NCBI GenBank assembly: GCA_024679065.1
Contig: JAGIQG010000009.1
Coordinates: forward strand, 91,760,001 to 91,824,000
From: Sphyrna mokarran
Lineage: Eukaryota
Reading direction: 5' to 3'
Length of the DNA: 64,000 nucleotides
Position 1 is the first letter of the stretch; each line of letters opens with the position of its first letter. A program made the translations under genes and the position numbers. Below are positions 12,701 through 33,700 of the stretch, piece after piece. Under the pieces are notes generated by a model that saw only the letters and a list, made by a program, of their open reading frames with translations, made no database searches and was not told the origin of the DNA.

Positions 12701-15700
12701 AACATTAGATGCCAGCTTTTATACTCTATACCTCTTTCTATGAAGGCTAGCATACCATAAGCCTTCTTCACCACCTTTTCCAGCTGTACTGCCACCTTCA
12801 AGGACTTGTGTACATGCACCCCTAGGTCCCTCTGAGTTTCTATACTCTTAATAGTCCTACCATTTATTGTATAACTCCCCCATACATTATTTCTTCCAAA
12901 ATGCATCACCTCGCATTTATCTGGATTAAATTCCACCTGCCATTTCACTGCCCACTTTACCAGCCTAGTTATATCCTGCTATATTGCCTGACACTGTTCC
13001 TCACTATCAGCAAGTCCAGCCATCATCGTGTCATCTGAAAACTTGCTGATCACACCACCTACTTCCTCTTCCAAGTCATTTATAAATATTACAGATAGCA
13101 GAGGTCCCAGTACCGAGCCCTGTGACACACCACTAATGACTGACCTCCAGCTAGAAAAAGACCCTTCCACCACTGCTGTCTGTCTCCTGTTACCAAGCCG
13201 GTTCTCAATTCATCTCGACACCTGTCCTTGTATCCCATTAGCCTTAACCTTTTCCACCAACCTAACATGAGGGAGTTCATCAAGCATCTTACTGAAATCC
13301 ATATAGACGACATCCACGGCTTGCCCTTCGTTGGCCGTTTTTGTCACCCCCTCAAAAAATTCTACCAGATTCGTAAGGCACGACCTCCCCTTTACAAGCC
13401 ATGCTGCCTATCACTAATCGGATTGCCGACTACGCACTACCACAGATTACCCCAAAAGCCTCATTTGTGCTTGGGTTTGTCACTTGTCCAAGCCCCTGCC
13501 AGCAGTCTGGCACAGTTGCTATGCCAGTTGTTCCACTGTCGATAAGGGTCTCAGAATCCAGTTCTATAGTCCCCTACTTTTCCCTACTCACGCTGTTGAA
13601 TGGGGCCAAGAGAAATCGGCTCAGGAAGGGGCCATGCTTAGCTTTGTATTGCCAGGCATTTGGAGGACAAGGACAAAGGAATCTTGTTAAAGTTAAAGGG
13701 CTTTGCTGCGTACCCACCCTGGATTTTCCACTCCTCCCCCACTTCCCAATGATGACCTATTTTCCAGCGGGAAATGGCCATTGGCCACTGGCGGGCTAAT
13801 TCGGATCCACCAAAGTCTACAGTGTTTTGTGCGGCTTGCCATTGAAGAGTGGGGAGGGGGAGGAGGACTGGGAAAAGGCTATCCCTGGAAACTTGTGAGC
13901 AGTTTAGATCTCCATAATAGATGGATAGGCTAGGATTTGTGGCACTACAGCAACATGTTCACCAGATTGGGCTCCACTAGTGAGCCACAGGCCATTGAAG
14001 CCCCTGGATGGTTGGGGGCATGGCCGGGCATTCCCAATGATGCGGTGCCCACCTGACACACTGGCAGTGCCAGTGAGGCACAGGGTAAGTGTGCTGGGGC
14101 AGTGTCAAAAGGTTCTGATGTCCCTGTTTGGGGAAGGGGGGTGGTGGAGGTCTCTCAATTAACACAGTGATCAGAGCGTCTGAGCACATTACAACTGGTT
14201 TCACCTGTGTTCAGACTCCGCACCCTCTGTACTGGCACCAAGCTCCCAACTGTCTAAAAAAATGGGAAAGATTGTGATGTAGAGCACCCCAATAGGACTG
14301 CTGTGGGGGGACTTTCTTTTTCTTTTCCTTGGGAAAATTCCATCATGTGGTTTTCAACCAGATCATCTGTGGGATGGTGGAACATGCTTGAAGGGCTGAG
14401 TGGCCTCCTCCTGTTCCGAATTCCTATGTTCCTATTTTTGAATCCTACAGGATTCGAGAAGGGGCTTGGCAGGCTAGATAGTCCCTGGGAGATTCCTTTC
14501 CCTGATTGGAGAATCCAGACCAAGGCTTAGCCTAACAGGGGGGTGTTATTTAGGACCTCGATGAGGAGCAATTTCTTCATTCAAGCGTTTGTGAGCTTTT
14601 TGGATTTCTCTAACCCTGAATGTGATGGATGCTCCATCGTTGAATATATTTAACTCAGATTCAGGGATCCAAAGGATAAGGTGGTGGGAATGGAGGGGCG
14701 GGGGTGGGCAAGCAAGGAAGTCTGAGGATCAGCCAAGATAATATGGAGTGACAGGCCGTCTGGTCTGGCCCCCTTCCCATTGCGTGTGCATTTATTCCCT
14801 GCCCTGTCTCCCAAAGACGAGGAGCCGTAGAAGGTTCCCATACTGATCTGGAGGCTCAGGCCCCCTCCCCATTCACGATCACTCTCTGCTTCATTACCTC
14901 AGGCTCGCACACCTTGCAGAACCTCTTCAACTACAACGTGCGGCTGGCTGGCCTTCCGGAATTCTCCGTGGTGGGGATGCTGGATGATCTGCAGACACAG
15001 TACTACGACAGCGACCAGAGGAAAAGCGAGCCTCGGCAGCAGTGGATGGCCCACAGCTTTTCAGACAACTACTGGCATGAGCAGACCAGGGCCGTGGAGT
15101 CTGTTCACCAGCTTCTCTCTAGTAACTTTGGTCCATTCCTCCCACAATTTGGTGCGTCTGCTTCAATGCTCGCTTCGCGTTTTAGTTAAAATGGAGCCAG
15201 ATTGACACCAACATGCAGGAAGTTTCACCCTGGGCAACTTTAGCGCTAGTGAGAGACAGTTAGAATGCATTCTTTAACTCTCCAGTTACAAATTTAACTG
15301 GAAAAAGAGAAAACAACAACAGCTTGCATTTATCTAGTACCTTCGCCGCAGGAGAATGTCCCAAGTTCTTTCTGAGGAGGAATTTGACTCTGACCCACAC
15401 AAAGAGACATTAGGGCAGACCTCTAAAAGTGGGCAAAGGGGCAGATTTTTGCAAGTAGCTTGAAGAAGGAAAGTGGGGTAGAGAAGTGTGTGGGGTTGTG
15501 GGGGGGGTGGTGATTTTGCAGAGCTGGGAATTCAGGCAGCTAAAAGACTGGGCGACCAATGGTTTTTAAAAATTCAGCTTTGCTCAGTAGCCATAATCTG
15601 AATCTGAGGTAACACGGACAGGATGAAAGTTACAGAGGCAGAGGAGATTGGACGGGGATAAATCGGCCAACGTTGCAGGTGTTAGCCACTTCGTGACAGC

Positions 15701-18700
15701 AAAGACATCTGGTTGGAAGCTCATAAAATCACAGAATAGAGTCACAGACTCCCTACAGCTTGCACCGACAACAATCCCATCCAGGCCCTATCCCGATAAC
15801 TCTGTATATTTACACTGATAATCCACCTAATCTTGTGACACTAGGATCAATTTATCATGGCCAGTACACCTAACCTGCACATCTTTGCATTGTGGGAGGA
15901 AACCAGAGCAACACGGAGGAAAGCCACGCAGACATGGGGAGAGTGTGCAAACTGCACACACAAGTCACACAAGCTGGGAATTGAACGCAGATCTGTGCTG
16001 CTGTGAGGCTGCAGGGCTAACCACTGGGTCACTGTGCTGCTCAGCTCCCAACTTCAATATGACTGCCAAGGGTCTGGTTTATTCCCAGGCTGCTGTGCTG
16101 ATTCCTGTAGCTGGGGAACAGAGCTTTAGTGGGAGCTGAAAACTATGCCCGCCGTTTTCGAATTCCCGTTCCGATTCTCTTCCCGCACACAGCAGTGCAC
16201 CAACTTCCATCTGTTTCCATAGCCCGTCATTCCCGGAATAGATCTTTAGAGGCTTATAGTTTGAGGGAAGCCACTCCACATGAAGCGTGGCTGAGCAGGA
16301 GTCTCTCTGCTCTTAAGCCAGCCATTGGTGTATTGGGAAGGATTTACAGGTCAGTGTGCTCAGAGGCAGAACGCTACCCACTGCATCACAACACCTCCAT
16401 CCACTGTCTTCCTAGACAGTGTTTAATTGGAGGCAGATTTGATTCACCCAGTGTTAGATGTCAGATAAGCAGTCTGACAATAATTTGACAGAAGTGATGA
16501 CATTGAGTTGAGTTAATCTATAAAACCAACAGCAGTATGTGCATGGCACATTGGTGCGATAAAGGTTGGACCCTTGGGGAGTATCAGAGGTAATGGTGTA
16601 GAGGGGAGGGTGTGCAGGATGGTAATTCTCTTGCTCTGACTAGCTGGTTTAGGAGTGGAACCCATTCAGTGCAGTCGTAGCAAGCTGGACACCACTGAAG
16701 AGCAAACCGAAATGCGAAAGGCTGCAGACAGCAGCAGAAGGACCAGGAGGGATGGGCTTCCTTAATCACAGCCACAGAATGTCACACGGCCCCAAATGTC
16801 AGTCGCCAATCTCATCGTTATTCTTTACATTCACTGAATTGTTCACTCCAATTCAGGGTCACTTAATTTACTCACTCACTCTCGCTCACTCACTCTCGCT
16901 TGCTCACTCGTTCTCCCTCTCTACCTCTCTGGCTCACTCTTCCGTTGTCCCCCTTCTCGTTCTTTCTCCTCCTCTTTCTCTCTCGCCCTCTCGCTACCCC
17001 TCCTGCTTCTCTCCCTCTCCTCCTCTCACTCCCTCTCCCCTTCTCGTTCCCTCTCCCCTTCTCGCTCCCTCTCCCTTCTCGCTCCCTCTCCCCTTCTCGT
17101 TCCCTCTCCTTCTCGCTCCCTCTCCCCTCTCGTCCCTCTCCCCTTCTCGCTCCTCTCCCCTTCTCGCTCCCTCTCCCCTCTCGTCCCTTCCCCTTCTCGT
17201 TCCCTCTCCCCTTCTCGCTCCCTCTCCCCTTCTCGCTCCCTCTCCCCTTCTCGTTCCCTCTCCCCTTCTCGCTCCATCTCCCCTTCCTCGTTCCTCTCCC
17301 CTTCTTGCTCCTCTCCCCTTCTCGTTCTCTACCCCTCCTCGCTCCCTCTCCCCTTCTCGTTCCCTCTCGCTTCTCGCTCCCTCTCCCCTTCTCGTTCCCT
17401 CTCCCCTTCTCGTTCTCTCACCCCTCCTCGCTCCTCTCCCCTTCTCGTCCCTCTCCCCTTCTCGCTCCCTCTCCCCTTCTCGTTCCCTCTCCCCTTCTCG
17501 CTCCCTCTCCCCTTCTTGTTCCCTCTCCCCTTCTCGTTCCCTCTCCCCTTCTCATCCCTCTCCCCTTCTCGCTCCCTCTCTCCTCCTCGTTCCCTCTCCC
17601 CTTCTCGCTCCCTCTCTCCTTCTCGTTCCCTCTCCCCTTCTCGCTCCCTCTCTCCTCCTCGTTCCCTCTCCCCTTCTTGTCCCTCTCCCCTTCTCGCTCC
17701 CTCTCTCCTTCTCATTCCCTCTCCCCTTCTCGCTCTCTCTCCCCTTCTTGTTCCCTCTCCCCTTCTCGTTCCCTCTCCCCTTCTCATCCCTCTCCCCTTC
17801 TCGCTCCCTCTCTCCTCCTCGTTCCCTCTCCCCTTCTCGCTCCCTCTCTCCTTCTCGTTCCCTCTCCCCTTCTCGCTCCCTCTCTCCTCCTCGTTCCCTC
17901 TCCCCTTCTTGTCCCTCTCCCCTTCTCGCTCCCTCTCTCCTTCTCATTCCCTCTCCCCTTCTCGCTCCCTCTCCCCTTCTTGTTCCCTCTCCCCTTCTCT
18001 CCCTCTCCCTTTTCGTCCCCTCTCCCCTCTCTTGTCCCTCTCCCTTCTCGCTCCCTCTCTCCTTCTCATCCCTCTCCCCTTCTCGCTGTCTCTCTCCTTC
18101 TGTTCCCTCTCCCCTTCTCGCTCCCTCTCCCCTTCTCGTTCCTCTCCCCTTCTTGTCCCTCTCCCCTTCTCGCTCCCTCTCTCCTTCTCGCTGCCTCTCT
18201 CCTTCTTGTTCTCTCTCCCCTTCTCATTCCCTCTCCCCTTCTTGCTCCTCTCCCCTTCTTTTTCCCTCTCCCCTTCTCATTCCCTCTCCCCTTCTCATTC
18301 CCTCTCCCCTTCTCGCTCCCTTCCCTTCTCATTCCCTCTCCCCTTCTCATTCCCTCTCCCCATCTCGTTCCCTCTCCCCTTCTCATTCCCTCTCCCCACC
18401 GTCCCTCTCCCCTTCTCATTCCCTCTCCCCTTCTCGTTCCCTCTCCCTTCTCGTTCCCTCTCCCCTTCTCGCTCCCTCTCTCCTCCTCGTTCCCTCTCCC
18501 CTTCTCGCTCCCTCTCCCCTTCCCGTTCCCTCTCCCCTTCTCGCTCCCTCTCTCCTCCTCGTTCCCTCTCCCCTTCTCGCTCCCTCTCTCCTTCTCGTTC
18601 CCTCTCTCCTTCTCGTTCCCTCTCTCCTTCTCATTCCCTCTCCCCTTCTCGCTCCCTCTCCCCTTCTCGCTCCCTCTCCCCTTCTCATTCCCTCTCCCCT

Positions 18701-21700
18701 TCTCATTCCCTCTCCCCATCTCGTTCCCTCTCCCCTTCTCATTCCCTCTCCCCATCTCGTTCCCTCTCCCCTTCTCATTCCCTCTCCCCTTCTCGTTCCC
18801 TCTCCCCTTCTCGTTCCCTCTCTCCTTCTCGCTCCCTCTCTCCTCCTCGTTCCCTCTCCCCTTCTCGCTCCCTCTCCCCTTCTCGTTCCCTCTCCCCTTC
18901 TCGCTCCCTCTCTCCTCCTCGTTCCCTCTCCCCTTCTTGTCCCTCTCCCCTTCTCGTTCCCTCTCCCCTTCTCATTCCCTCTCCCCTTCTCGCTCCCTCC
19001 CCTTCTTGTTCCCTCTCCCCTTCTCATTCCCTCTCCCCATCTCGTTCCCTTTCCCTCTCATTCCTCTCTCCTTTCGCTCCCTCCCCCTTCTCATTCCCTC
19101 TCTCCTTTTTGCTCCCTCCCCCTTCTCATTCCCTCTCCCTCTTGTCCCTCTCCCCTTCTCGTTCCCTCTCTCCTTCTCGCTCCCTCTCTCCTTCTCGTTC
19201 CCTCTCCTTCTCGTTCCCTCTCCCCTTCTCATTCCCTCTCCCCTTCTCGCTCCCTCTCCCCTTCTCGCTCCCTCTCCCCTCTCCCCTTTTCGCTCCCTCT
19301 CCCCCTCGAGCTCCTTTTCCCCCTATCGCTTCCTCTCCCCGTCTCATTCCCTCCCCCTCCTCACTCCCTCTCCCGATCTTGTACCCTCTCCCCTTCTCGT
19401 TCCCTCTCTCCTTCTCGCTCCCTCTCTCCTTCTCGTTCCCTCTCCCCTTCTCGTTCCCTCTCCCCTTCTCATTCCCTCTCCCCTTCTCGCTCCCTCTCCC
19501 CTTCTCGCTCCCTCTCCCCTCTCCCCTTTTCGCTCCCTCTCCCCCTCGAGCTCCTTTTCCCCCTATCGCTTCCTCTCCCCGTCTCATTCCCTCCCCCTCC
19601 TCACTCCCTCTCCCGATCTTGTTCCCTCTCCCCTTCTCATTCCCTCTCCCTTCTCACTCCCTCTCCCCTTCTCGTCCCTCTCCCCTTCTCGTTCCCTCTC
19701 CCCTTCTCGTTCCCTCTCCCCTTCTCGCTCCCTCTCTCCTTCTCGCTCCCTCTCCCCTTCTCGTTCCCTCTCCCCTTCTCGTTCCCTCTCCCCTTCTCGC
19801 TCCCTCTCTCCTTCTCGCTCCCTCTCTCCTTCTCGTTCCCTCTCCCCTTCTCGTTCCCTCTCCCCTTCTCGTTCCCTCTCCCCTTCTCGTTCCCTCTCCC
19901 CTTCTCGTTCTCTCTCTCCTTCTCGCTCCCTCTCTCCTTCTCGCTCCCTCTCTCCTCCTCGTTCCCTCTCTCCTTCTCGTTCCCTCTCCCCTTCTCGTTC
20001 CCTCTCCCCTTCTCACTCCCTCTCCCCTTCTCGCTCCCTCTCCCCTTCTCACTCCCTCTCTCTCCGTTCCCTTCTCCCATTCGTTCCCTCTCCCCTTCTC
20101 GTTTCCCTCTCCCCTTCTCGTCCCTCTCCCCTTCTCGTTCCCTCTCCCCTCTCACTCCCTCTCCCTCTCGTTCCCTCTTCCCCTTCTCGCTCCCTTCCCC
20201 TTCTCGCTCCCTCTCCCCTTCTCGCTCCCTCTCCCCTTCTCGCTCCCTCTCCCTTCTCGCTCCCTCTCCCCTTCTCGCTCCTCTCCCCTTCTCGTTCCCT
20301 CTCCTTCTCGCTCCCTCTCCCCTTCTCGCTCCCTCTCCCCTTCTCGTTCCCTCTCCCCTTCTCGCTCCATCTCCCCTTCTCGTTCCCTCTCCCCTTCTTG
20401 CTCCTCTCCTTCTCGTTCTTCACCCCTCCTCGCTCCCTCTCCCCTTCTCGTTCCCTCTCCCCTTTCGTTCTCTCACCCCTCCTCGCTCCCTCTCCCCTTC
20501 TCGTTCCCTCTCCGCTTCTCGCTCCCTCTCCCCTTCTCGTTCCCTCTCCCCTTCTCATCCCTCTCCCCTTCTCGCTCCCTCTCCCTTCTCGTTCCCTCCC
20601 CCTTTCATCCCTCTCCCCTTCCGCTCCCTCTCTCCTCCTCGTTCCCTCTCCCCTTCTCGCTCCCTCTCTCCTTCTCGTTCCCTCTCCCCTTCTCGCTCCC
20701 TCTCTCCTCCTCGTTCCCTCTCCCTTCTTGTCCTTCCCCTTCTCGCTCCCTCTCTCCTTCTCATTCCTCTCCCCTTCTCGCTCTTCTCCCCTTCTGTTCC
20801 CTCTCCCCTTCTCGCTCCCTCTCTCCTTTTCGTTCCCTCTCCCCTTCTTGTCCCTCTCCCCTTCTCGCTCCCTCTCTCCTTCTCATTCCCTCTCCCCTTC
20901 TCGCTGTCTCTCTCCTTCTTGTTCCCTCTCCCCTTCTCGCTCCCTCTCCCCTTCTCGTTCCCTCTCCCCTTCTGCCCTCTCCCCTTCTCGCTCCCTCTCT
21001 CCTTCTCGCTGCCTCTCTCCTTCTTGTTCTCTCTCCCTTCTCATTCCCTCTCCCCTTCTTGCTCCTCTCCCTTCTTTTTCCCTCTCCCCTTCTCATTCCC
21101 TCTCCCCTTCTCATTCCTCTCCCCTTCTATTCCCTCTCCCCTTCTCGCTCCCTCTCCCCTTCTCATTCCCTCTCCCCTTCTCATTCCCTCTCCCCATCTC
21201 GTTCCCTCTCCCCTTCTCATTCCCTCTCCCCATCTCGTTCCCTCTCCCCTTCTCATTCCCTCTCCCCTTCTCGTTCCCTCTCCCCTTCTCGTTCCCTCTC
21301 CCCTTCTCGCTCCCTCTCTCCTCCTCGTTCCCTCTCCCCTTCTCGCTCCCTCTCCCCTTCCCGTTCCCTCTCCCCTTCTCGCTCCCTCTCTCCTCCTCGT
21401 TCCCTCTCCCCTTCTCGCTCCCTCTCTCCTTCTCGTTCCCTCTCTCCTTCTCGTTCCCTCTCTCCTTCTCATTCCCTCTCCCCTTCTCGCTCCCTCTCCC
21501 CTTCTCGCTCCCTCTCCCCTTCTCATTCCCTCTCCCCATCTCGTTCCCTCTCCCCTTCTCATTCCCTCTCTCCTTTTCGCTCCCTCTCCCCTTCTCATTC
21601 CCTCTCCGCTTCTCGTTCCCTCTCCCCTTCTCGCTCCCTCTCTCCTTCTCGCTCCCTCTCTCCTTCTCGTTCCCTCTCTCCTTCTCATTCCCTCTCCCCT

Positions 21701-24700
21701 TCTCGCTCCCTCTCTCCTTCTCGCTCCCTCTCTCCTTCTCGTTCCCTCTCCCCTTCTCGTTCCCTCTCCCCTTCTCGTTCCCTCTCCCCTTCTCGTTCCC
21801 TCTCCCCTTCTCGCTCCCTCTCCCCTTCTGTTCCCTCTCCCCTTCTCATTCCCTCTCCCCATCTCGTTCCCTCTTCCCTTCTCATTCCCTCTCTCCTTTT
21901 CGCTCCCTCTCCCCTTCTCATTCCCTCTCTTTTCGCTCCTCTCCCCTTCTCATTCCCTCTCCGCTTCTTGTTCCATCTCCCCTTCTCGTTCCCTCTCTCC
22001 TTCTCGCTCCCTCTCTCCTTCTCGTTCCCTCTTCCCTTCCTCATTCCCTCTCCCCTTCTCGCTCCCTCTCCCCTTCTCGCTCCCTCTCCCCTCTCCCCTT
22101 TTCGCTCCCTCTCCCCCTCGAGCTCCTTTTCCCCCTATCGCTTCCTCTCCCCGTCTCATTCCCTCCCCCTCCTCACTCCCTCTCCCGATCTTGTACCCTC
22201 TCCCCTTCTCGTTCCCTCTCTCCTTCTCGCTCCCTCTCTCCTTCTCGTTCCCTCTCCCCTTCTCGTTCCCTCTCCCCTTCTCATTCCCTCTCCCCTTCTC
22301 GCTCCCTCTCCCCTTCTCGCTCCCTCTCCCCTCTCCCCTTTTCGCTCCCTCTCCCCCTCGAGCTCCTTTTCCCCCTATCGCTTCCTCTCCCCGTCTCATT
22401 CCCTCCCCCTCCTCACTCCCTCTCCCGATCTTGTTCCCTCTCCCCTTCTCATTCCCTCTCCCCTTCTCACTCCCTCTCCCCTTCTCGTTCCCTCTCCCCT
22501 TCTCGTTCCCTCTCCCCTTCTCCCTCCCTCTCCCCTTCTCGTTCCCTCTCTCCTTCTCCCTCCCTCTCCCCTTCTCGTTCCCTCTCCCCTTCTCGTTCCC
22601 TCTCCCCTTNNNNNNNNNNNNNNNNNNNNNNNNNNNNNNNNNNNNNNNNNNNNNNNNNNNNNNNNNNNNNNNNNNNNNNNNNNNNNNNNNNNNNNNNNNN
22701 NNNNNNNNNCCTTCTCGCTCCCTCTCTCCTCCTCGTTCCCTCTCCCCTTCTTGTCCCTCTCCCCTTCTCGCTCCCTCTCTCCTTCTCATTCCCTCTCCCC
22801 TTCTCGCTCCCTCTCCCCTTCTTGTTCCCTCTCCCCTTCTCATTCCCTCTCCCCATCTCGTTCCCTCTTCCCTTCTCATTCCCTCTCTCCTTTTCGCTCC
22901 CTCTCCCCTTCTCATTCCCTCTCTCCTTTTCGCTCCCTCTCCCCTTCTCATTCCCTCTCCGCTTCTTGTTCCATCTCCCCTTCTCGTGCTCCCTCTCTCC
23001 TTCTCGCTCCCTCTCTCCTTCTCGTTCCCTCTCCCTTCTCATTCCCTCTCCCCTTCTCGCTCCCTCTCCCCTTCTCGCTCCCTCTCCCCTCTCCCCTTTT
23101 CGCTCCCTCTCCCCCTCGAGCTCCTTTTCCCCCTATCGCTTCCTCTCCCCGTCTCATTCCCTCCCCCTCCTCACTCCCTCTCCCGATCTTGTACCCTCTC
23201 CCCTTCTCGTTCCCTCTCTCCTTCTCGCTCCCTCTCTCCTTCTCGTTCCCTCTCCCCTTCTCGTTCCCTCTCCCCTTCTCATTCCCTCTCCCCTTCTCGC
23301 TCCCTCTCCCCTTCTCGCTCCCTCTCCCCTCTCCCCTTTTCGCTCCCTCTCCCCCTCGAGCTCCTTTTCCCCCTATCGCTTCCTCTCCCCGTCTCATTCC
23401 CTCCCCCCCCTCACTCCCTCTCCCGATCTTGTCCCTCTCCCCTTCTCATTCCCTCTCCCCTTCTCACTCCCTCTCCCCTTCTCGTTCCCTCTCCCCTTCT
23501 CGTTCCGCTCCCCTTCTCCCTCCCTCTCCCCTTCTCGTTCCCTCTCTCCTTCTCCCTCCCTCTCCCCTTCTCGTTCCCTCTCCCTTCTCGTTCCCTCTCC
23601 CCTTCTTGCTCCTCTCCCCTTCTCATTCCCTCTCCCCTTCTCCCTCCCTCTCCCCTTCTCGTTCCCTCTCCCCTTCTCGTTCCCTCTCCCCTTCTCGTTC
23701 CGTCTCCCCTTCTCGTTCTCTCTCTCCTTCTCGCTCCCTCTCTCCTTCTCGCTCCCTCTCTCCTCCTCGTTCCCTCTCTCCTTCTCGTTCCCTCTCCCCT
23801 TCTCGTTCCCTCTCCCCTTCTCACTCCCTCTCCCCTTCTCGCTCCCTCTCCCCTTCTCACTCCCTCTCCCCTTCTCATTCCCTCTCCCCTTCCTCGTTCC
23901 TCTCCCTTCTCGTTCCCTCTCCCCTTCTCGTCCCTCTCCCCTTCTCGTTCCCTCTCCCCTTCTCACTCCCTCTCCCCTTCTCGTTCCCTCTCCCCTTCTC
24001 GCTCCCTCTCCCCTTCTCCTCCCCTCTCTCTCCTTCTCCTATCTCTCTCCCCTTCTCGCCTTCCCTCCTCCCCCCTCTCCCCTTCTCTCTCCCTCTCCCC
24101 TTCTCGTTCCTCTCCCCTTCTCGCTCCTCTCCCCTTCTCGCTCCCCTCTCCCCTTCTCGTTCCCTCTCCCTTCTCGTCCTCTCCTCTCCTTCTCGCTCCT
24201 CTCCCCTTCTCGTTCCCTCTCCCCTTCTCGCTCCATCTCCCCTTCTCGTTCCCTCTCCCCTTCTTGCTCCTCTCCCCTTCTCGTTCTCTCCCCCTCCTCG
24301 CTCCCTCCTCTCCCCTTCTCGGTTCCCTCTCCCCTTCTCGCGTTCCCTCACCCCTTCCTCGCTCCCCCTCCCCTTCTCGTCCCTCTCCGCTTCCTCGCTC
24401 CCTCTCCCCTTCTCGTTCCCTCTCCCCTTCTCATCCTCTCCCGCTTCTCGCTCCCTCTCCCCTTCTCGTTCCCTCTCCCCTTCTCATCCCTCTCCCCTTC
24501 TCGCTCCCTCTCTCCTTCTCGTTCCCTCTCCCCTTCTCGCTCCCTCTCCCCTTCTCTTCCTCTCCCCTTCTAGCTCCCTCTCCCCTTCTCGTTCCCTCTC
24601 CCCTTCTTTCCCTCTCCCCTTCTCGCTCTCTCCCTTCTCATTCCCTCTCCCTTCTCGCTCCCTCTCCCCTTCTGATTCCCTCTCCCCTTCTCGCTCCCTC

Positions 24701-27700
24701 TCTCCTTTTCGTTCCCTCTCCCCTTCTTGTCCCTCTCCCCTTCTCGCTCCCTCTCTCCTTCTCATTCCCTCTCCCCTTCTCGCTGTCTCTCTCCTTCTTG
24801 TTCCCTCTCCCCTTCTCGCTCCCTCTCCCCTTCTCGTTCCCTCTCCCCTTCTTGTCCCTCTCCCCTTCTCGCTCCCTCTCTCCTTCTCGCTGCCTCTCTC
24901 CTTCTTGTTCTCTCTCCCCTTCTCATTCCCTCTCCCCTTCTTGCTCCTCTCCCCCTTCTTTTTCCCTCTCCCCTTCTCATTCCCTCTCCCCTTCTCGCTC
25001 CCTCTCCCCTTCTCATTCCCTCTCCCCTTCTCATTCCCTCTCCCCATCTCGTTCCCTCTCCCCTTCTCATTCCCTCTCCCCATCTCGTTCCCTCTCCCCT
25101 TCTCATTCCCTCTCCCCTTCTCGTTCCCTCTCCCCTTCTCGTTCCCTCTCCCCTTCTCGCTCCCTCTCTCCTCCTCGTTCCCTCTCCCCTTCTCGCTCCC
25201 TCTCCCCTTCCCGTTCCCTCTCCCCTTCTCGCTCCCTCTCTCCTCCTCGTTCCCTCTCCCCTTCTCGCTCCCTCTCTCCTTCTCGTTCCCTCTCTCCTTC
25301 TCGTTCCCTCTCTCCTTCTCATTCCCTCTCCCCTTCTCGCTCCCTCTCCCCTTCTCGCTCCCTCTCCCCTTCTCATTCCCTCTCCCCATCTCGTTCCCTC
25401 TCCCCTTCTCATTCCCTCTCTCCTTTTCGCTCCCTCTCCCCTTCTCATTCCCTCTCCGCTTCTCGTTCCCTCTCCCCTTCTCGCTCCCTCTCTCCTTCTC
25501 GCTCCCTCTCTCCTTCTCGTTCCCTCTCTCCTTCTCATTCCCTCTCCCCTTCTCGCTCCCTCTCTCCTTCTCGCTCCCTCTCTCCTTCTCGTTCCCTCTC
25601 CCCTTCTCGTTCCCTCTCCCCTTCTCGTTCCCTCTCCCCTTCTCGTTCCCTCTCCCCTTCTCGTTCTCTCTCCCCTTCTCGCTCCCTCTCCCCTTCTCGC
25701 TCCCTCTCCCCTCCTCGTTCCCTCTCCCCTTCTCGTTCCCTCTCCCCTTCTCGTTCCCTCTCCCCTTCTCACTCCCTCTCCCCTTCTCGCTCCCTCTCCC
25801 CTTCTCACTCCCTCTCCCCTTCTCATTCCCTCTCCCCTTCTCGTTCCATCTCCCCTTCTCGCTCCCTCTCTCCTTTCCTCCTCTCTCCTTCTCGTTCCCT
25901 CCTCCCTTCTCATTCCCTCTCCCCTTCTCGCTCCCTCTCCCCTTCTCGCTCCCTCTCCCCTCTCCCCTTTTCGCTCCCTCTCCCCCTCGAGCTCCTTTTC
26001 CCCCTATCGCTTCCTCTCCCCGTCTCATTCCCTCCCCCTCCTCACTCCCTCTCCCGATCTTGTACCCTCTCCCCTTCTCGTTCCCTCTCTCCTTCTCGCT
26101 CCCTCTCTCCTTCTCGTTCCCTCTCCCCTTCTCGTTCCCTCTCCCCTTCTCATTCCCTCTCCCCTTCTCGCTCCCTCTCCCCTTCTCGCTCCCTCTCCCC
26201 TCTCCCCTTTTCGCTCCCTCTCCCCCTCGAGCTCCTTTTCCCCCTATCGCTTCCTCTCCCCGTCTCATTCCCTCCCCCTCCTCACTCCCTCTCCCGATCT
26301 TGTTCCCTCTCCCCTTCTCATTCCCTCTCCCCTTCTCACTCCCTCTCCCCTTCTCGTTCCCTCTCCCCTTCTCGTTCCCTCTCCCCTTCTCCCTCCCTCT
26401 CCCCTTCTCGTTCCCTCTCTCCTTCTCCCTCCCTCTCCCCTTCTCGTTCCCTCTCCCCTTCTCGTTCCCTCTCCCCTTCTCGTTCTCTCTCTCCTTCTCG
26501 CTCCCTCTCTCCTTCTCGCTCCCTCTCTCCTCCTCGTTCCCTCTCTCCTTCTCGTTCCCTCTCCCCTTCTCGTTCCCTCTCCCCTTCTCACTCCCTCTCC
26601 CCTTCTCGCTCCCTCTCCCCTTCTCACTCCCTCTCCCCTTCTCATTCCCTCTCCCCTTCTCGTTCCCCTCTCCCCTTCTCGTTCCCTCTCCCCTTCTCAC
26701 TCCCTCTCCCCTTCTCGTTCCTCTCCCCTTCTCGCTCCCTCTCCCCTCCTCTTCCCTCTCCCCTTCTCGTCCCTCTCTCCCTTTCTGTTCCCTCTCCCCT
26801 CTCGTCCCTCTCCCCTTCTCGTCCCTCTCCCCTTCTCCTTCCCTCTCCCCTTCTCGTTCCCTCTCCCTTCTCACCCCCTCTCTCCTCTCCTCCCTCTCCC
26901 CTCTCGTTCCCTCTCCCCTTCTCACTCCCTCTCCCCTTCTCGCTCCCTCTCCCCTTCTCACTCCCTCTCTCCTTCTCGCTCCTCTCCCCTTCTCGTTCCC
27001 TCTCCCCTTCTCACTCCCTCTCCCCTTCTCGTTCCCCTCCCCTTCTCTCTCCCTCTCCCCTTCTCGTTCCTCTCCCTTCTCACTCCCTCTCCCCTTCTCG
27101 TTCCCTCTCCCTTCTCACTCCCTCTCCCCTTCTCGCTCCCTCTCCCCTTCTCACTCCCTCTCTCCTTCTCATCCCTCTCCCCTTCTCGCTCCCTCCCCCT
27201 TCTCATCCTCCCCTTCTCACTCCCTCTCCCCTTCTCGTTCCCTCTCCCCTTCTCGTTCCCTCTCCCCTTCTCCCTCCCTCTCCCCTTCTCGTTCCCTCTC
27301 TCCTTCTCCCTCCCTCTCCCCTTCTCGTTCCCTCTCCCCTTCTCGTTCCCTCTCCCCTCTTGCTCCTCTCCCCTTCTCATTCCCTCTCCCCTTCTCCCTC
27401 CCTCTCCCCTTCTCGTTCCCTCTCCCCTTCTCGTTCCCTCTCCCCTTCTCGTTCCGTCTCCCCTTCTCGTTCTCTCTCTCCTTCTCGCTCCCTCTCTCCT
27501 TCTCGCTCCCTCTCTCCTCCTCGTTCCCTCTCTCCTTCTCGTTCCCTCTCCCCTTCTCGTTCCCTCTCCCCTTCTCACTCCCTCTCCCCTTCTCGCTCCC
27601 TCTCCCCTTCTCACTCCCTCTCCCCTTCTCATTCCCTCTCCCCTTCTGTCCCTCTCCCCTTCTCGTTCCCTCTCCCCTCTCTCCTTCCCCTCTCTTCCCT

Positions 27701-30700
27701 CTCCCCTCTCACTCCCTCCCCTTCTCGCTCCCTCTCCCCTTCTCACTCCCTCTCCTTCTCCTCTCACCTTCTCGTTCTCTACTCCCCTTCTCACTCCCTC
27801 TCCCCTTCTCGCTCCCTCTCCCCTTCTCACTCCCTCTCCTTCTCACTCCCTCTCCCCTTCTCTTCCTCCCCTTCTCACTCCCTCTCCTTCTCCCTCCCCT
27901 TCTCCCTCCCTCTCCCTTCTCGTCCCCTCCCCTTCCTCCTCTCCCTTCTGTTCCCTCTCCCTCTCACTCCTCTCCCCTTCTCGCTCCCTCCCCTTCTCAC
28001 TCCCTCTCTCCTTCTCAATCCCTCTCCTCCGTTCCTCTCTCTCCTTCTCATCCTCCCCTTCTCATCCCTCTCTCCTTCTCGTTCCCTCTCCCCTTCTCGC
28101 TCCTCTCCCGTTCTCGTTCCCTCTCCCCTTCTCGCTCCCTCTCTCCTTCTCCTTCTCTCTCCCCTCCTCGTTCCCTCTCCCCTTCTAGCTCCTTTTCCCC
28201 CTATCGCTTCCTCTCCCCGTCTCATTCCCTCGCCCTCCTCACGCCCTCTCCCGATCTTGCTCCCTCTCCTCTTCTCGTTTCCTCTCACCTTCTTCCCTCT
28301 CCTCTTCTCGTTTCCTCTCACCTTCTTCCCTCTCACCTTTTCATTCCCTCTCTCCTTCTCGTTCCCTTTCCCCTTCTCATTCCCTCTCCCCTTTTCGCTC
28401 CCTCTCCCCTTCTCATTCCCTCTCTCCTTCTCGTTCCCTTTCCCCTTCTCATTCCCTCTCCCCTTTTCGTTCCCTCTCCCCTTCTCGTTCCCTCTCCCCT
28501 TTTCGCTCCCTCTCCCCTTCTCATTCCCTCTCTCCTTTTCGCTCCCTCTCCCCTTCTCCTTCCCTCTCCTTTTCGCTCCCTCTCCCCTTCTCATTCCCTC
28601 TCCCTCTCATTCCCTCTCCCCTCTCGTTCCCTCTCCCCTTCTCGTTCCCTCCCCCTTCTCGTTCCTCTCCCCTTTTAGCTCCCTCTCTCCTTCTCGTTCC
28701 CTCTCCCTTTTCTCTCCCTCTCCCCTTCTCATTCCCTCTCCCCTTCTCGTTCCCTCTCCCCTTCTCATTCCCTCTCTCCTTCTCGTTCCCTCTCCCTTCT
28801 CGCCCTTCCCTTTCTCTCCTCTCCCCTTCTCATTCCCTCTCTCCTCCTCGTTCCCTCTCCCCTTTTCTCTCCCTCTCCCCTTCTCATTCCCTCTCTCCTC
28901 CTCGTTCCCTCTCCCCTCCTCGTTCCCTCTCCCCTTTTCGCTCCCTCTCCCCTTCTCATTCCCTCTCTCCTTCTTGTTCCCTCTCTCCTTCTCATTCCCT
29001 CTCCCCTTCTCGTTCCCTCTTCCCTCCTCGTTCCGTCTCCCCTTTTCGCTCCCTCTCCCCTTCTCATTCCCTCTCTCCTTTTCGCTCCCTCTCCCCTTCT
29101 CATTCCCTCTCTCCTTCTCGCTCCCTCTCTCCTTCTCGTTCCCTCTCCCTTTTTCGCTCCCTCTCCCCTTCTCATTCCCTCTCTCCTTTTTGCTCCCTCT
29201 CCCCTTCTCATTCCCTCTCACCTTCTTGTTCCCTCTCTCCTTCTTGTTTCCTCTCCCCTTCTGGTTCCTTCTCCCCTTCTTGCTCCCTCTCCCCTTCTCG
29301 CTCCCTCTCCCCTTCTCGCTCCCTCTCCCCTTCTCGTTCCGTCTCTCCTTCTTGCTCCTCTCCCCTCCTCGTTCCCTCTCCCCTTCTTGCTCCTCTCCCC
29401 TTCTGGTTCCCTCTCCCATTTTTGTTCCCTCTCCCTTCTCGTTCCCTCTCCCCTTCTCGTTCCCTCTTCCCTTCTTGTCCCTCTCCCCTCTCGCTCCCTC
29501 TCCCCTTCTCGCTCCCTCTCCCCTCTCCCCTTTTCGCTCCCTCTCCCCCTCTAGCTCCTTTTCCCTATCGCTTCCTCTCCCCGTCTCATTCCCTCCCCCT
29601 CCTCACTCCCTCTCCCGATCTTGCTCCCTCTCCCCATCTTGCTCCTTCTCTCCCTCTCCCCTCCCTTGCTCCCTTTTCCCCATCTCACTCCCTCTCCCCA
29701 TCTCACTCCCCCTCCCCGTCTCAGTCCTCTCCCTCTCTTGCTCCCTCTCTCCTTCTCACTCTTCTCTATTTCTAGAGCTCCCTCTCACTCATTCACTCAC
29801 TCACACTCTCGTTTTCTACCCCCTCGCTCTCTCTCTCTCCCCTTCGCTTACTCTCTCTGTCTTTCTCACACTTGTTTGCTCACTCTCTTTCTCCTGCTCA
29901 CTTGCTCACTCTCCTCTTGCTTGANNNNNNNNNNNNNNNNNNNNNNNNNNNNNNNNNNNNNNNNNNNNNNNNNNNNNNNNNNNNNNNNNNNNNNNNNNNN
30001 NNNNNNNNNNNNNNNNNNNNNNNNNNNNNNNNNNNNNNNNNNNNNNNNNNNNNNNNNNNNNNNNNNNCACATAGACACACACTTGCTCTCAGAACACACG
30101 TACACTCTCTCACATACATGCATGCATGCGCACACCCATGCACACATGCATGTGCGCACATGCATGCACACGCTCGCACACACACATACACTCATACGCA
30201 CACACACTTACACTCATACAACTCTCGCACATATGCACACATACGCATTCTCTCTCATACACGCACACATACACACTCTCTCTCATGTACACACTCTCTC
30301 TCATGTACACACTCTCTCACATACGCACTCTCTATCACATACTCTCTCTTTCATGCACACACACTTTCTCTCTCACATATACTTTCACTCTCTCTCTCAC
30401 ACACACTCTCTGTTTCACACTGACACACTTTCTCTCTTTCACACACAAACTTTTTCTCTCTCACACACATTTTCTCTCTCACACACACTCTCTCACATAC
30501 ACACTCTCACTCTCTTTCTTCCACTCATTCGCTCACCCTCCCTCAGACACTCACACTCACATTCACACATACTCACTCATAGCTACACATTCTAGAGCCA
30601 GCCTGAAAGTGGATTATCCTGGACCAGGCAATATGCACTGAGATTGCATGAATCAATATTCAATGAGAAAAGCAGCCTCTGAGTGACAGTGATTATAACA

Positions 30701-33700
30701 TAGTAACATATCATGTCCAGTTTGAAATGGCTCATGTTTTAAATCAATAAAAAGTAATTATAAAAGTATGAAGGTTGGGTTGAGTGAGGAAAACTGGGAT
30801 GCTAGATTAAAGGTAGCACAGTAAAGTTACTGTTTCAGACTTTGAAGCTGCAATTGAATAACTCTCAGGAAAAGGTTAATCCCAGTGAGAAAGAAAGGCT
30901 TGTTGTGAAGGATATATCATTCACACTAAATAAGAAAGTTCAGAAAAATCAAAAGCAACATTGTGTGAATCTTCAAGGATTATTAGTTGATCAGAGGATT
31001 AGACAGATTTTTATGAACCAACAAAGAATGACAAAAAAAGTAATACAGAGATAGAAAGCAGAGATGAGAGAAAGAAGGCTAGGGATATAAAAACAGGCAG
31101 CAACAAGCTTCTACAAGTATTTAAATAGAAAAGGATTAGCTAAAACTGATGTTGGCTCCAGGAGAGTGGTCTGGGTAATTAATAACATAAAAGAAAAAAA
31201 TTGAACAAGATCTTTCACAGATGATGGCTTAGAAAACCTAGAATTGATAGAATCCCCGCTGTGCAGAAGGAAACCATTTGGTCCACTGAGCCTGCACTGA
31301 CAGCAATCCCACCCAGACCCGATCCCCATAACCCCGGGTATTTACCCTACTAATCCTCCTGGCACTAAGGGGTAATTTATCACAGACAATCCACCTAACC
31401 TGCACATCTTTGGACAATGAGAGGAAATCAAACCAGCCGGAGGAAACCCACGCAGACACGGAGAGAATGAACAAACTCCACACAGTCCCCCCGAAGCCGG
31501 AATTGAAACTAAGTCCCGTGCACTGTGAGACAGGAGTGCTAACCACCGTGCCACTCCAAAGATTCCAAAAGAGTCTCAAAAATTCTTCAATATCAAGAGA
31601 TGATGAAGAGGGATGAACTTGTTACAATCCCCATCATCAGGGAAAAAGTACTGGAAAGCCATTGAATCTCAGGGCTGACAAGGCCCCAGGAACTCCACTT
31701 ACTCACCCCCTCACCATAACTCTTCATTCCTTTCCTGTTCAAAAATTTATCTATCCTTGCCTTAAAAACATTCAATGAGCCAACCTGAACCACTTCACTG
31801 GGTAGGGAATTCCACCGGTTCACAACTCTTTATGTGAAGAAGTTCCTCCTTAACTCAGTTTTATATCTGCTTCCCCTTATTTTGAGGCCATGCCCGCAAG
31901 TTCTAATTTCACTGCCAGTGGAAACAACTTCCCTGCTTCTATCTTATCTATTGCCTTCATATTCTTATAAGTTTCTTTAAGATCTCCCTCATTCTTCTGA
32001 ATTCCAATAAGTATAGCCCTAGAGTACTTAGTCTCTCCCCGTGAGCCAATCCTCTCAACTCCTCTGCACTCCTGCCAGTGCCAGTATATCTTTTCTCAAG
32101 TAAGAAGACCAAAACTGTACACAGTACTGCATGTGTGGCTTCAGCAGCACCTTATACAGCTGCAACATAATCTCACTGTTTTTAAACTCCATCCCTCTGG
32201 CATCGAAGGAAAAATTCCATTTGCCTTCTTAATTATCTACTGTAGCTGTAAATCAACTCCTTCAGATTCCTGCACAAGGACACTCAGGTCCCTCTGCAGA
32301 ACAGCATGCTGCAATTTTTTATCATTTAAATAATAGTCCATTTTGCTCTTATTTCCCGCAAATGATCTCACATTTATCAGTCGCAGACACATTGGTTATC
32401 ATATTCCAAACTTCCTTAGATTCTGGAACAGTTCTAGCAAATTGAAAAATAACTAATTTAACACCTTTAATCAAGAAAGGAAGGTATAAGAAAGCAATAT
32501 GTTATAAGCCAGTTAGCTCAATGCCAGTTAACCTAACTAGCCATCAAGAAATTGCTAGAATCCATTATTAAGGAAGTTACAGAAAGATACTTAAAATACA
32601 GAGAGTAAGAGACAAATGGGTATTTTTTGGATTGGCGAGTATAACTATTGGAGTGCCTGCCATTGGATCAGTGCTGGGTCCTCAACAACTTTCAACAATA
32701 AAGGGACTATGTGTCTGCTGGTTATGGTTGCCACTGACACTGACAGAGGAACTGGGGAGCCTCAGAAGCGACATGGGACAGTTGAAGTGAGTGGACTAGA
32801 ATTTGGCATTTGGAGTATAATGTTGAAAATGGGAGCTTGTTCATTTTGGCATGAAGAATAGAGAGAAGTTGCAGAGGTCTACTGTACAAAAGGAGCTGGG
32901 TGTCCTGGTACATGAATTACACAAAATTAGCATGCAAGTGCAACAAGTGATGAGGTCGGCAAATCGAATGTTGATGTCAATTGGTAGAAGAATGGAACAT
33001 AAAAACAAGGAAGTTTAACTGCAGCTGTACATGACCCATCTGGTGTACGGTTTTAGCTTCCTTATTAAAAATATATGAAACTGCTTTAAAAGCAGTTCAG
33101 GAATGAGTCACTGGCTTCATTCCTCGAGAAAAAAAGCTTGTCTTACGAGGAAAGGTTGAGCAGATTGGGCTGATACAAAGAGTGAGAGGTGATCTCATTG
33201 AAAATTATAAGATCATGAGGGAGCCTGCTTGGGTGGATATCTGTTCCTTCTTGTGGAGTGGGGGGGGGAGTTATGTTTGCCCAGCAGAGTGAGAGACACA
33301 TGGAGATTTCAGCCTGTAATGTTGCGTTGACCTGTTGATCTTCGGCAGGAATCCAGTACATCCAGGGGCTCTGGAGCTGTACGCTACAAAACAACAAGAG
33401 CACCAACAGCTTGATAAGGATAAAAACTGGTTATGGAGAGATTCAATGTGAAATGGCCACAATGCATTGCAGGGGGACAGGCTTACTCAATTTGCTGACG
33501 CAAGACTTTGAAAAAATCCTCAACACTAATATCACTTTTGTCCGTTTACTACACACCAGCTGTGTTCAACATCTGCAGAAAACTCTTCAAGTTGGTAAAG
33601 CAGCCCTGGAAAGAAAAGGCAAGTGGAACACTACACTTAGTTTCACAATGAGGTCTGCATTAAGAGTGGATCTGGGTTCTGATTTTTAAGGAGGATCAAG

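What the first reader, a model, noticed from the sequence alone, without database searches (positions are those of the whole stretch)
14903..33618. Highly derived ligand groove: nearly all peptide-terminus anchors are lost
By-eye alignment to HLA numbering: Y7->N, Y59 kept, R/Y84 lost, K146/W147->D/F (TQDF), Y159->L, W167->H, Y171->T. The alpha1 exon has only 83 codons (usually ~87-90), its helix ends in FGPFLPQF with two prolines, and the N86 glycan is absent. New sequons appear in alpha2 (NKS, and NIT on the helix). The whole ORF is intact, so it looks selected rather than decayed. Inference: a non-peptide ligand binder or ligand-free receptor ligand. It could belong to a known shark nonclassical lineage (UBA, UCA, UDA, UEA, UFA) or be a new one; I cannot assign it without a search.
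Basis: partly seen in the sequence, partly recalled or inferred. Interest (0 to 1): 0.75.

Follow-up and report, generated by a model that had tools for sequence, protein, structure and literature searches.

The report
Shark CD1-like MHC gene UFA
This is an intact shark copy of the already named immune gene UFA, whose groove has lost the residues that hold peptides and likely carries lipids, and whose tail-less end, shared with other sharks and rays, is predicted to tether it to the cell by a glycolipid (GPI) anchor.

Summary
In detail: the gene keeps 1 of 9 peptide-terminus anchors, has an 83-codon alpha1 exon and no N86 glycan, and five exons splice into an open 315-residue frame. It is not a new lineage. 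All three domains hit PDB 8GM8, titled shark nonclassical class I UFA, first, and trees place it inside a shark-and-ray UFA clade (100/99 alpha2, 100/99 alpha3, 100/100 joined). The odd features are lineage traits. UFA is reported, without primary data in the papers I could read, as CD1-like and lipid-binding. (1) A tail-less hydrophobic C-terminus resembles a GPI signal (window and 17 of 20 UFA proteins, against 3 of 167 controls; crude post-hoc rule). (2) An extra cysteine pair sits in alpha2 (13 of 14 against 0 of 30). (3) Several beta2-microglobulin contact residues are changed. Expression, dN/dS, synteny and ligand were not testable. Verdict: new member of a known kind, with a testable GPI lead.

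The parts
9685..9763 (+). Leader exon (ATG at 9685, 26 codons plus one base), GT donor
   Evidence: tblastn of Mustelus ortholog P0001, 70% identity; boundaries
14903..15151 (+). Alpha1 exon, 249 nt, 83 codons; Y59 kept, Y7 and R84 lost, N86 region deleted
   Evidence: best PDB hit 8gm8_A E 1.9e-20
16950..29757 (.). CT-rich 18-bp satellite (about 720 copies, one N gap) filling most of the 18.2-kb alpha1-alpha2 intron
   Evidence: Tandem Repeats Finder; gaps
33349..33618 (+). Alpha2 exon, 270 nt; anchors lost; four cysteines (canonical 101/164 plus lineage pair at 126/133); sequons NKS and NIT; followed by a GC donor
   Evidence: only PDB hit at E<=10 is 8gm8_A, E 5.6e-20
35900..36163 (+). Alpha3 (C1-set Ig) exon, 264 nt; two sequons; Q242 replaced by R
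   Evidence: best PDB hit 8gm8_A E 1.2e-31
39738..39823 (+). Terminal coding exon: glycine/serine-rich spacer, hydrophobic end, stop codon, no cytoplasmic tail (predicted GPI signal)
   Evidence: 96% identical to the end of P0001
39866..40335 (+). Possible intron in the 3' UTR (donor 42 nt past the stop); AATAAA at 40996
   Evidence: consensus sites only; not verified with RNA

Best explanation
The gene is the intact UFA ortholog of a shark: a nonclassical MHC class I chain that has lost the peptide-end anchors, likely holds a lipid in its groove, and is predicted to sit on the cell surface by a GPI anchor because it ends without a cytoplasmic tail. Shown: five-exon open frame, UFA identity, anchor loss, tail-less end, conservation across sharks and rays. 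Reported second-hand: lipid binding by UFA. Inferred: the C-terminal signal is cut in the ER and replaced by GPI. [quoted passage not shown] Inferred: cysteines 126 and 133 form a second alpha2 disulfide. Odds: UFA membership about 0.97, lipid ligand about 0.75, GPI about 0.6.
For: 8gm8_A is the best PDB hit for each domain, and the only hit for alpha2 among 177,635 sequences at E<=10; its title is 'shark nonclassical MHC CLASS I, UFA', and its aligned residues read the same as Gcirratum_UFA in PMC10751288 Suppl. file 10 (by eye). The window sits in the UFA clade at 100/99 (alpha2), 100/99 (alpha3) and 100/100 (joined), sister to Mustelus in 4 of 4 trees; the mixture-model quick tree gives 100. 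The model of the Mustelus ortholog (pLDDT 88.2) matches 8gm8_A at Z 27.1, rmsd 1.6 A over 252 residues; the next row is Z 23.3. Groove hydropathy over 41 recalled positions: window 0.84, UFA mean 0.84, classical UAA 0.16, CD1 1.55 and 1.93. Lipid binding is stated in PMC12562908 sect. 2.1 and CD1-likeness in PMC10751288. GPI-like end: window plus 17 of 20 UFA proteins pass a rule based on PMC2571997, against 3 of 167 other fetched proteins. Thirteen more skate copies on 1.1-1.35 kb Logan contigs, likely spliced transcripts, end the same way (13 of 13). Cysteines 126 and 133: 13 of 14 UFA rows, both absent together in Heptranchias, 0 of 30 other rows; they lie on adjacent strands in the model.
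Against: Groove hydropathy is intermediate: the UFA range 0.46-1.34 overlaps nurse UAA (0.64) and UBA (0.36-0.66) and stays below CD1. After 8GM8 the structural matches are near-tied between FcRn, chicken YF1, classical BF2, UGA and CD1 (Z 23.3-21.4), so the fold does not single out CD1. The lipid claim rests on 'unpublished data' and a personal communication. The GPI rule was written after I saw the tails. The last 21 residues are uncharged, long enough for a membrane helix. The best omega candidate lies only about 2 residues past the last alpha3 strand, without the roughly 11-residue linker that PMC2571997 describes; the other candidate has a very short spacer. Three of 20 UFA records (P0006, P0013, P0017) end otherwise. 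The model is of an 81%-identical ortholog, not of the window's protein.
Confidence: 0.6

Rival explanations
1. A UFA ortholog that binds lipid but is held by an ordinary membrane helix with no cytoplasmic tail, or is secreted after cleavage; no GPI.
For: The last 21 residues carry no charge and are modelled as a helix. The omega candidates fit the published layout only partly. Three UFA records have other ends.
Against: No basic stop-transfer cluster follows the hydrophobic run: 0-4 residues after the best 12-residue window in tail-type UFA, against 19-87 residues with 4-10 K/R in the 14 transmembrane controls. A small-residue cluster 20-29 residues from the end is kept from sharks to rays.
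Confidence: 0.22
2. A UFA ortholog that works as a ligand-free or lipid-stabilised surface ligand or receptor (MILL-, MIC-, FcRn- or EPCR-like), possibly without beta2-microglobulin, rather than as an antigen presenter for T cells.
For: D122 is kept in 0 of 14 UFA rows against 26 of 30 others, D119 in 1 of 14 against 23 of 30, Q242 in 0 of 14 against 26 of 30; D122 and G120 bond beta2m W60/H31 in HLA (PMC10288639; D119 and Q242 as contacts are recalled). FcRn ranks next to 8GM8 by fold. A MILL2-named cluster ties CD1a at 0.95 in the Atlas feature search (a lead only). A helix glycan could screen receptor docking (inference).
Against: Q96 (12 of 14), P235 (13 of 14) and D238 (9 of 14) are mostly kept. 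UGA also lacks D122. Crystal and mass-spectrometry evidence of CD1d-like lipids is reported.
Confidence: 0.14
3. A new, unnamed class I lineage.
For: Only 43-66% identity to nurse UFA by domain (hand count on the alignments). UEA and W-category were not in my trees.
Against: It nests inside the clade whose Chiloscyllium member shares nurse UFA's motifs (by eye), the clade roughly follows the species tree, and identity to all other lineages is at most 39%, 27% and 43% by domain.
Confidence: 0.02
4. A decaying pseudogene whose changes are drift.
For: GC donor after alpha2, a 12.8-kb satellite in one intron, and a 4-residue deletion in alpha3 relative to Mustelus.
Against: Open frame, all phases compatible, AG acceptors, canonical cysteines kept; end branch 0.077 against 0.13 for Mustelus, so no acceleration; the same changes are shared across 13 orthologs.
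Confidence: 0.02

Closest known systems
Nurse shark UFA (PDB 8GM8; Gcirratum_UFA in PMC10751288 Suppl. file 10)
   Same: Best hit for all three domains; same short alpha1, helix proline, extra alpha2 cysteines and anchor loss; model of the ortholog superposes at 1.6 A.
   Different: About 47%, 43% and 66% identity by domain (hand count); nurse UFA keeps Y7; the window has a helix sequon at NIT. The crystal construct is the ectodomain (265 residues), so it says nothing about the anchor.
Shark UGA (PDB 9CH4)
   Same: Second PDB hit for alpha1; sister to UFA in the alpha2 (98/91) and joined (97/87) trees; also reported as lipid-binding.
   Different: Keeps 5-6 of 9 anchors, N86 and an 87-residue alpha1; has a transmembrane helix and tail, with a YxxPhi motif in 5 of 5 skate copies checked. 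Identity 20-41% by domain.
CD1 (quail, turtle rows; human CD1a-d from papers)
   Same: 1 of 9 anchors, shortened alpha1 end, more hydrophobic groove; top Atlas feature hit is a CD1a-named cluster.
   Different: Orthology neither shown nor rejected (p-AU 0.25); groove less hydrophobic; no tail or tyrosine motif, which CD1 members other than CD1a carry (PMC2193123).
Mouse Qa-2 (and MILL, ULBP/RAE-1, recalled)
   Same: Class I-fold proteins on a GPI anchor with no cytoplasmic domain (Qa-2: PMC7770133).
   Different: Qa-2 binds peptides and is a mammalian lineage; the anchor would be convergent. Not compared by sequence here.
Classical shark UAA (PDB 6LUP)
   Same: Class I alpha1-alpha2-alpha3 fold and exon plan.
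   Different: UAA rows keep 8-9 of 9 anchors, N86 and a transmembrane helix with tail; 17-33% identity by domain.

Membership tests
UFA lineage | Closest named sequence and structure is nurse shark UFA in every domain | tested here: met
UFA lineage | Falls in one supported clade with shark and ray UFA orthologs | tested here: met
   100/99 alpha2, 100/99 alpha3, 100/100 joined. In alpha1 alone the long CD1 branch joins the group. Nurse UFA itself was not a row; the clade label rests
UFA lineage | Loss of peptide-terminus anchors and short alpha1 | tested here: met
   1 of 9 anchors (orthologs 1-3 of 9); length 83 as in 11 of 13 orthologs
UFA lineage | Maps in the MHC class Ib cluster with UDA and UEA; single or low copy | not testable with these tools
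   No genome held; only one class I gene in the window
UFA lineage | Binds lipid | not testable with these tools
   Second-hand report only; hydropathy intermediate
CD1 | Orthology to amniote CD1 | tested here: inconclusive
   Joined only in the alpha1 tree on a long branch; p-AU 0.252 for UFA+CD1 and 0.45 for UFA+UGA+CD1; two CD1 rows only
CD1 | Strongly hydrophobic groove | tested here: inconclusive
   0.84 against 1.55-1.93 for CD1 and 0.16 for UAA
CD1 | Transmembrane helix with cytoplasmic tail (tyrosine sorting motif in all but CD1a) | tested here: not met
   Stop codon directly after the hydrophobic run; feature from PMC2193123
CD1 | Associates with beta2-microglobulin | not testable with these tools
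   Contact residues partly changed; composition of entry 8GM8 not visible
Classical class Ia (UAA) | Nine conserved peptide-terminus anchors and N86 glycan | tested here: not met
   1 of 9, N86 deleted
UBA, UDA, UGA, UCA-type lineages | Clade membership | tested here: not met
   Each lies outside the clade that holds the window; labels are mine, by reading against Suppl. file 10
UEA lineage | Clade membership | not tested
   No sequence labelled UEA in the supplement; paper PMC8454915 not held. My 'UCA' row follows the supplement's nurse shark label and may be UEA (recalled)
W-category | Two-chain class II-like layout with two domains per chain (recalled) | tested here: not met
   One chain with alpha1, alpha2 and alpha3; not included in trees
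GPI-anchored proteins | Signal peptide, small-residue omega site 20-30 residues from the end, hydrophobic tail reaching the C-terminus | tested here: met
   Leader exon; candidate 27 residues from the end; last-20 hydropathy 1.69; crude rule, no trained predictor
GPI-anchored proteins | Unstructured linker of about 11 residues before omega and a 7-residue spacer | tested here: inconclusive
   One candidate lacks the linker, the other the spacer
GPI-anchored proteins | Release by PI-PLC | not testable with these tools
   bench test

The most novel reading that the evidence does not exclude
UFA is a GPI-anchored, beta2-microglobulin-independent lipid-binding class I kept from sharks to rays. It divides CD1's job with UGA: UGA carries a CD1-type tyrosine tail for endosomal loading, while tail-less UFA samples lipids at the surface or is shed. 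GPI alone: about 0.6; beta2m independence alone: about 0.25. The unseen primary paper on 8GM8/9CH4 may already state some of this.
Probability: 0.2. Interest if true: 0.65.

Novelty: new member of a known kind. Interest (0 to 1): 0.33.

Why it matters
The gene itself is one more ortholog of a named, crystallised lineage, so the finding as posed is ordinary. What could matter is the anchor. If UFA is GPI-linked, a CD1-like molecule of the oldest jawed vertebrates cannot use the tail-driven endosomal route on which most CD1 depend. The UFA/UGA pair would then offer a direct test of how lipid presentation was first divided between surface and endosome, which bears on the open question of when CD1 arose. 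The test is one PI-PLC experiment.

Tried and rejected
Whole genome: none held, so synteny and copy number are open. RNA runs for 33250-37800: no RNA holder listed, so no reads were laid and splicing, the GC donor and expression are unverified. dN/dS: no ortholog DNA available. Search for an alternative transmembrane exon downstream: 93 acceptor-like sites and 462 sites gave 7 and 28 candidates, mostly microsatellite read-outs and none convincing, but both scans missed the true terminal exon, so they are weak. First fold with 13 rows was poor (pLDDT 56.1) and was used only for PDB titles. Groove volume: model coordinates not available. Primary UFA/UGA paper or any GPI statement: not found in searches; 'GPI-anchored' has 0 occurrences in the two papers that name UFA; subscription journals and the thesis cited there are not searched; PMC8454915 not held. 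PMC7755423 and PMC6769792 passages added nothing on UFA. Earlier scan notes: none. The bacterial promoter scan does not apply to a shark gene and was ignored. CD1 orthology from the alpha1 tree was not accepted, as it rests on a branch of length 2.35 and is absent from the other trees. No second class I gene or other host gene was recognised in the window; the long frames seen are repeats or look like mobile-element remains (by eye, not scanned).
Full report
OBSERVATION. Searching the window with the nearest ortholog found three more exons: a leader at 9685-9763, alpha3 at 35900-36163 and a terminal exon at 39738-39823. Joined in a script they give 948 nt, 315 codons and a stop, with no internal stop. 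The splicing is inferred from consensus sites and from agreement with an ortholog; it was not checked on RNA. The 18.2-kb first intron is mostly a CT-rich satellite.

The residue claims hold. With columns located through nurse shark UAA and HLA numbering recalled, the window keeps Y59 only: 1 of 9 anchors, against 8-9 of 9 in four UAA rows. Position 143 depends on a gap. N86 is deleted.

IDENTITY. Each domain was searched separately against the PDB. Chain 8gm8_A was best each time: alpha1 E 1.9e-20 (next 1.8e-13), alpha2 E 5.6e-20 (the only match at E<=10 among 177,635 sequences), alpha3 E 1.2e-31 (next 3e-19). The entry is titled 'Crystal structure of shark nonclassical MHC CLASS I, UFA', and 9CH4 is UGA. 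The aligned residues read the same as Gcirratum_UFA and Gcirratum_UGA in Supplementary file 10 of PMC10751288 (compared by eye).

Protein searches gave a tight group of orthologs from sharks and rays; the closest is Mustelus asterias at 83, 78 and 83% by domain, which suggests a ground shark (inference). I built trees on 44 rows: the window, 13 UFA-group proteins and 30 other class I proteins, hand-picked from 263 fetched and labelled by me. The window lies in the UFA clade at 100/99 for alpha2, 100/99 for alpha3 and 100/100 for the joined domains, and is sister to Mustelus in 4 of 4 trees. A mixture-model quick tree without one long row agrees. In alpha1 alone, the two CD1 rows join the UFA group on a very long branch. 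AU tests neither reject nor show UFA+CD1 (p 0.252) or UFA+UGA+CD1 (p 0.45). Nurse UFA, UEA and W-category were not rows. An AlphaFold model of the Mustelus ortholog (89-row alignment, pLDDT 88.2) has an intact class I fold and matches 8gm8_A at Z 27.1, 1.6 A over 252 residues, with all other listed rows at 23.3-21.4.

THE ODD FEATURES ARE LINEAGE TRAITS. Among 13 orthologs: 1-3 of 9 anchors; alpha1 length 83 in 11; N86 missing in 13; the first helix proline in 5; a sequon in the NKS loop in 6. Only NIT is close to private (1 of 13). The window lacks the helix sequon, 8 columns away, that 7 of 13 carry, so the glycan may have moved about two turns along the same helix (inference).

LIGAND. PMC10751288 (passages, section 9, supplement parts 1, 97, 98) calls UFA very similar to CD1 in its binding region, citing unpublished data, and places it in the class Ib cluster. 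PMC12562908 (passages, section 2.1) says crystal structures and mass spectrometry suggest that UFA and UGA bind lipids like those of CD1d, citing a personal communication. My own measure is only mildly in favour: mean hydropathy over 41 recalled groove positions is 0.84 for the window, 0.46-1.34 for UFA, -0.26 to 0.64 for UAA, 0.36-0.66 for UBA and 1.55-1.93 for CD1.

(1) No cytoplasmic tail. The last exon gives a glycine/serine spacer, a hydrophobic run and a stop. In tail-type UFA proteins 0-4 residues follow the most hydrophobic window, against 19-87 with several basic residues in 14 transmembrane controls. This matches the GPI layout described in PMC2571997 (passages). A rule written after seeing the tails passes the window, 17 of 20 UFA proteins and 3 of 167 other fetched proteins of 260-460 residues. 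The three failures are a partial record, an isoform X2 and an alternative-end form. Thirteen further near-identical skate copies on 1.1-1.35 kb contigs, likely transcripts, all pass. Against: 21 uncharged residues could span a membrane, and neither omega candidate fits both linker and spacer. Skate UGA, by contrast, has a helix and a short tail with a YxxPhi motif like that of the turtle CD1 row (5 of 5 checked; not in the sawshark UGA record). Such motifs route CD1 to endosomes, CD1a excepted (PMC2193123 passages). Mouse Qa-2 is a precedent for a GPI-linked class I (PMC7770133 passages).

(2) Two extra cysteines at 126 and 133 occur in 13 of 14 UFA rows and 0 of 30 others; Heptranchias lacks both together, and they lie on neighbouring strands in the model. 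A disulfide is likely. (3) D122, D119 and Q242 are kept in 0, 1 and 0 of 14 UFA rows against 26, 23 and 26 of 30 others, while Q96 and P235 mostly remain. D122 and G120 bond to beta2m in HLA (PMC10288639 passages); the roles of D119 and Q242 are recalled. The interface is remodelled; whether beta2m still binds could not be seen here.

MECHANISM. Most likely: the chain enters the ER by its leader, folds as a class I platform with a second alpha2 disulfide, takes up a lipid instead of a peptide, has its C-terminal signal swapped for GPI, and displays lipid at the surface without tail-driven endosomal cycling. The gene structure, identity, anchor loss and missing tail are shown; the lipid is reported second-hand; the disulfide, GPI and trafficking are inferred.

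NOVELTY. The lineage is named and crystallised, so this is a new member of a known kind. I found no primary UFA paper and no mention of a GPI anchor in the library. The library lacks most subscription journals, and the paper behind 8GM8 and 9CH4 may already cover the anchor, the disulfide and beta2m. PMC8454915 and its supplements could not be seen and bear on the UEA comparison. Interest 0.33, carried mainly by the GPI lead.

Noticed in passing
P0240, P0242, P0246-P0248 (skate UGA) and P0015 (turtle CD1): Skate UGA has a short basic tail with a YxxPhi motif that closely parallels the turtle CD1 tail, which suggests CD1-type endosomal sorting in UGA.
   Followed up: partly
window 33619-33624: The alpha2-alpha3 intron starts with a GC donor (gcaagt) rather than GT.
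   Followed up: no
window 16950-29757: A 12.8-kb CT-rich 18-bp satellite, with stop-free frames of about 1,900-2,000 codons that are repeat artefacts.
   Followed up: no
window 39824-40335: After the stop the frame runs on for at least 15 codons without a stop, past a GT donor 42 nt downstream, with a strong acceptor at 40335; possibly the vestige of a former tail exon, close enough to the stop to escape nonsense-mediated decay (inference).
   Followed up: partly
window 35900-35945: Alpha3 is four residues shorter in its first loop than in Mustelus and carries a sequon there.
   Followed up: no
window about 33900-34170 and 41400-42200: Several inverted copies of a short element of about 150-200 bp, seen through a shared translated motif at 33998, 34128, 41588 and 42105; MITE-like by eye.
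   Followed up: no
window 37874-38837: A 30-bp tandem array, 32 copies at 93% match, in the intron before the terminal exon.
   Followed up: no
P0009, P0010; P0019, P0026; P0234, P0236: Rays (Pristis, Hemitrygon, Hypanus) each have two UFA-type records, so the lineage looks duplicated in rays; database names for UFA are arbitrary (MR1-like, HFE homolog, CD1d-like, ZAG-like).
   Followed up: no
P0008 (Heptranchias): The deepest-branching UFA row keeps W133 and K146 and lacks both extra cysteines: a possible intermediate state.
   Followed up: partly
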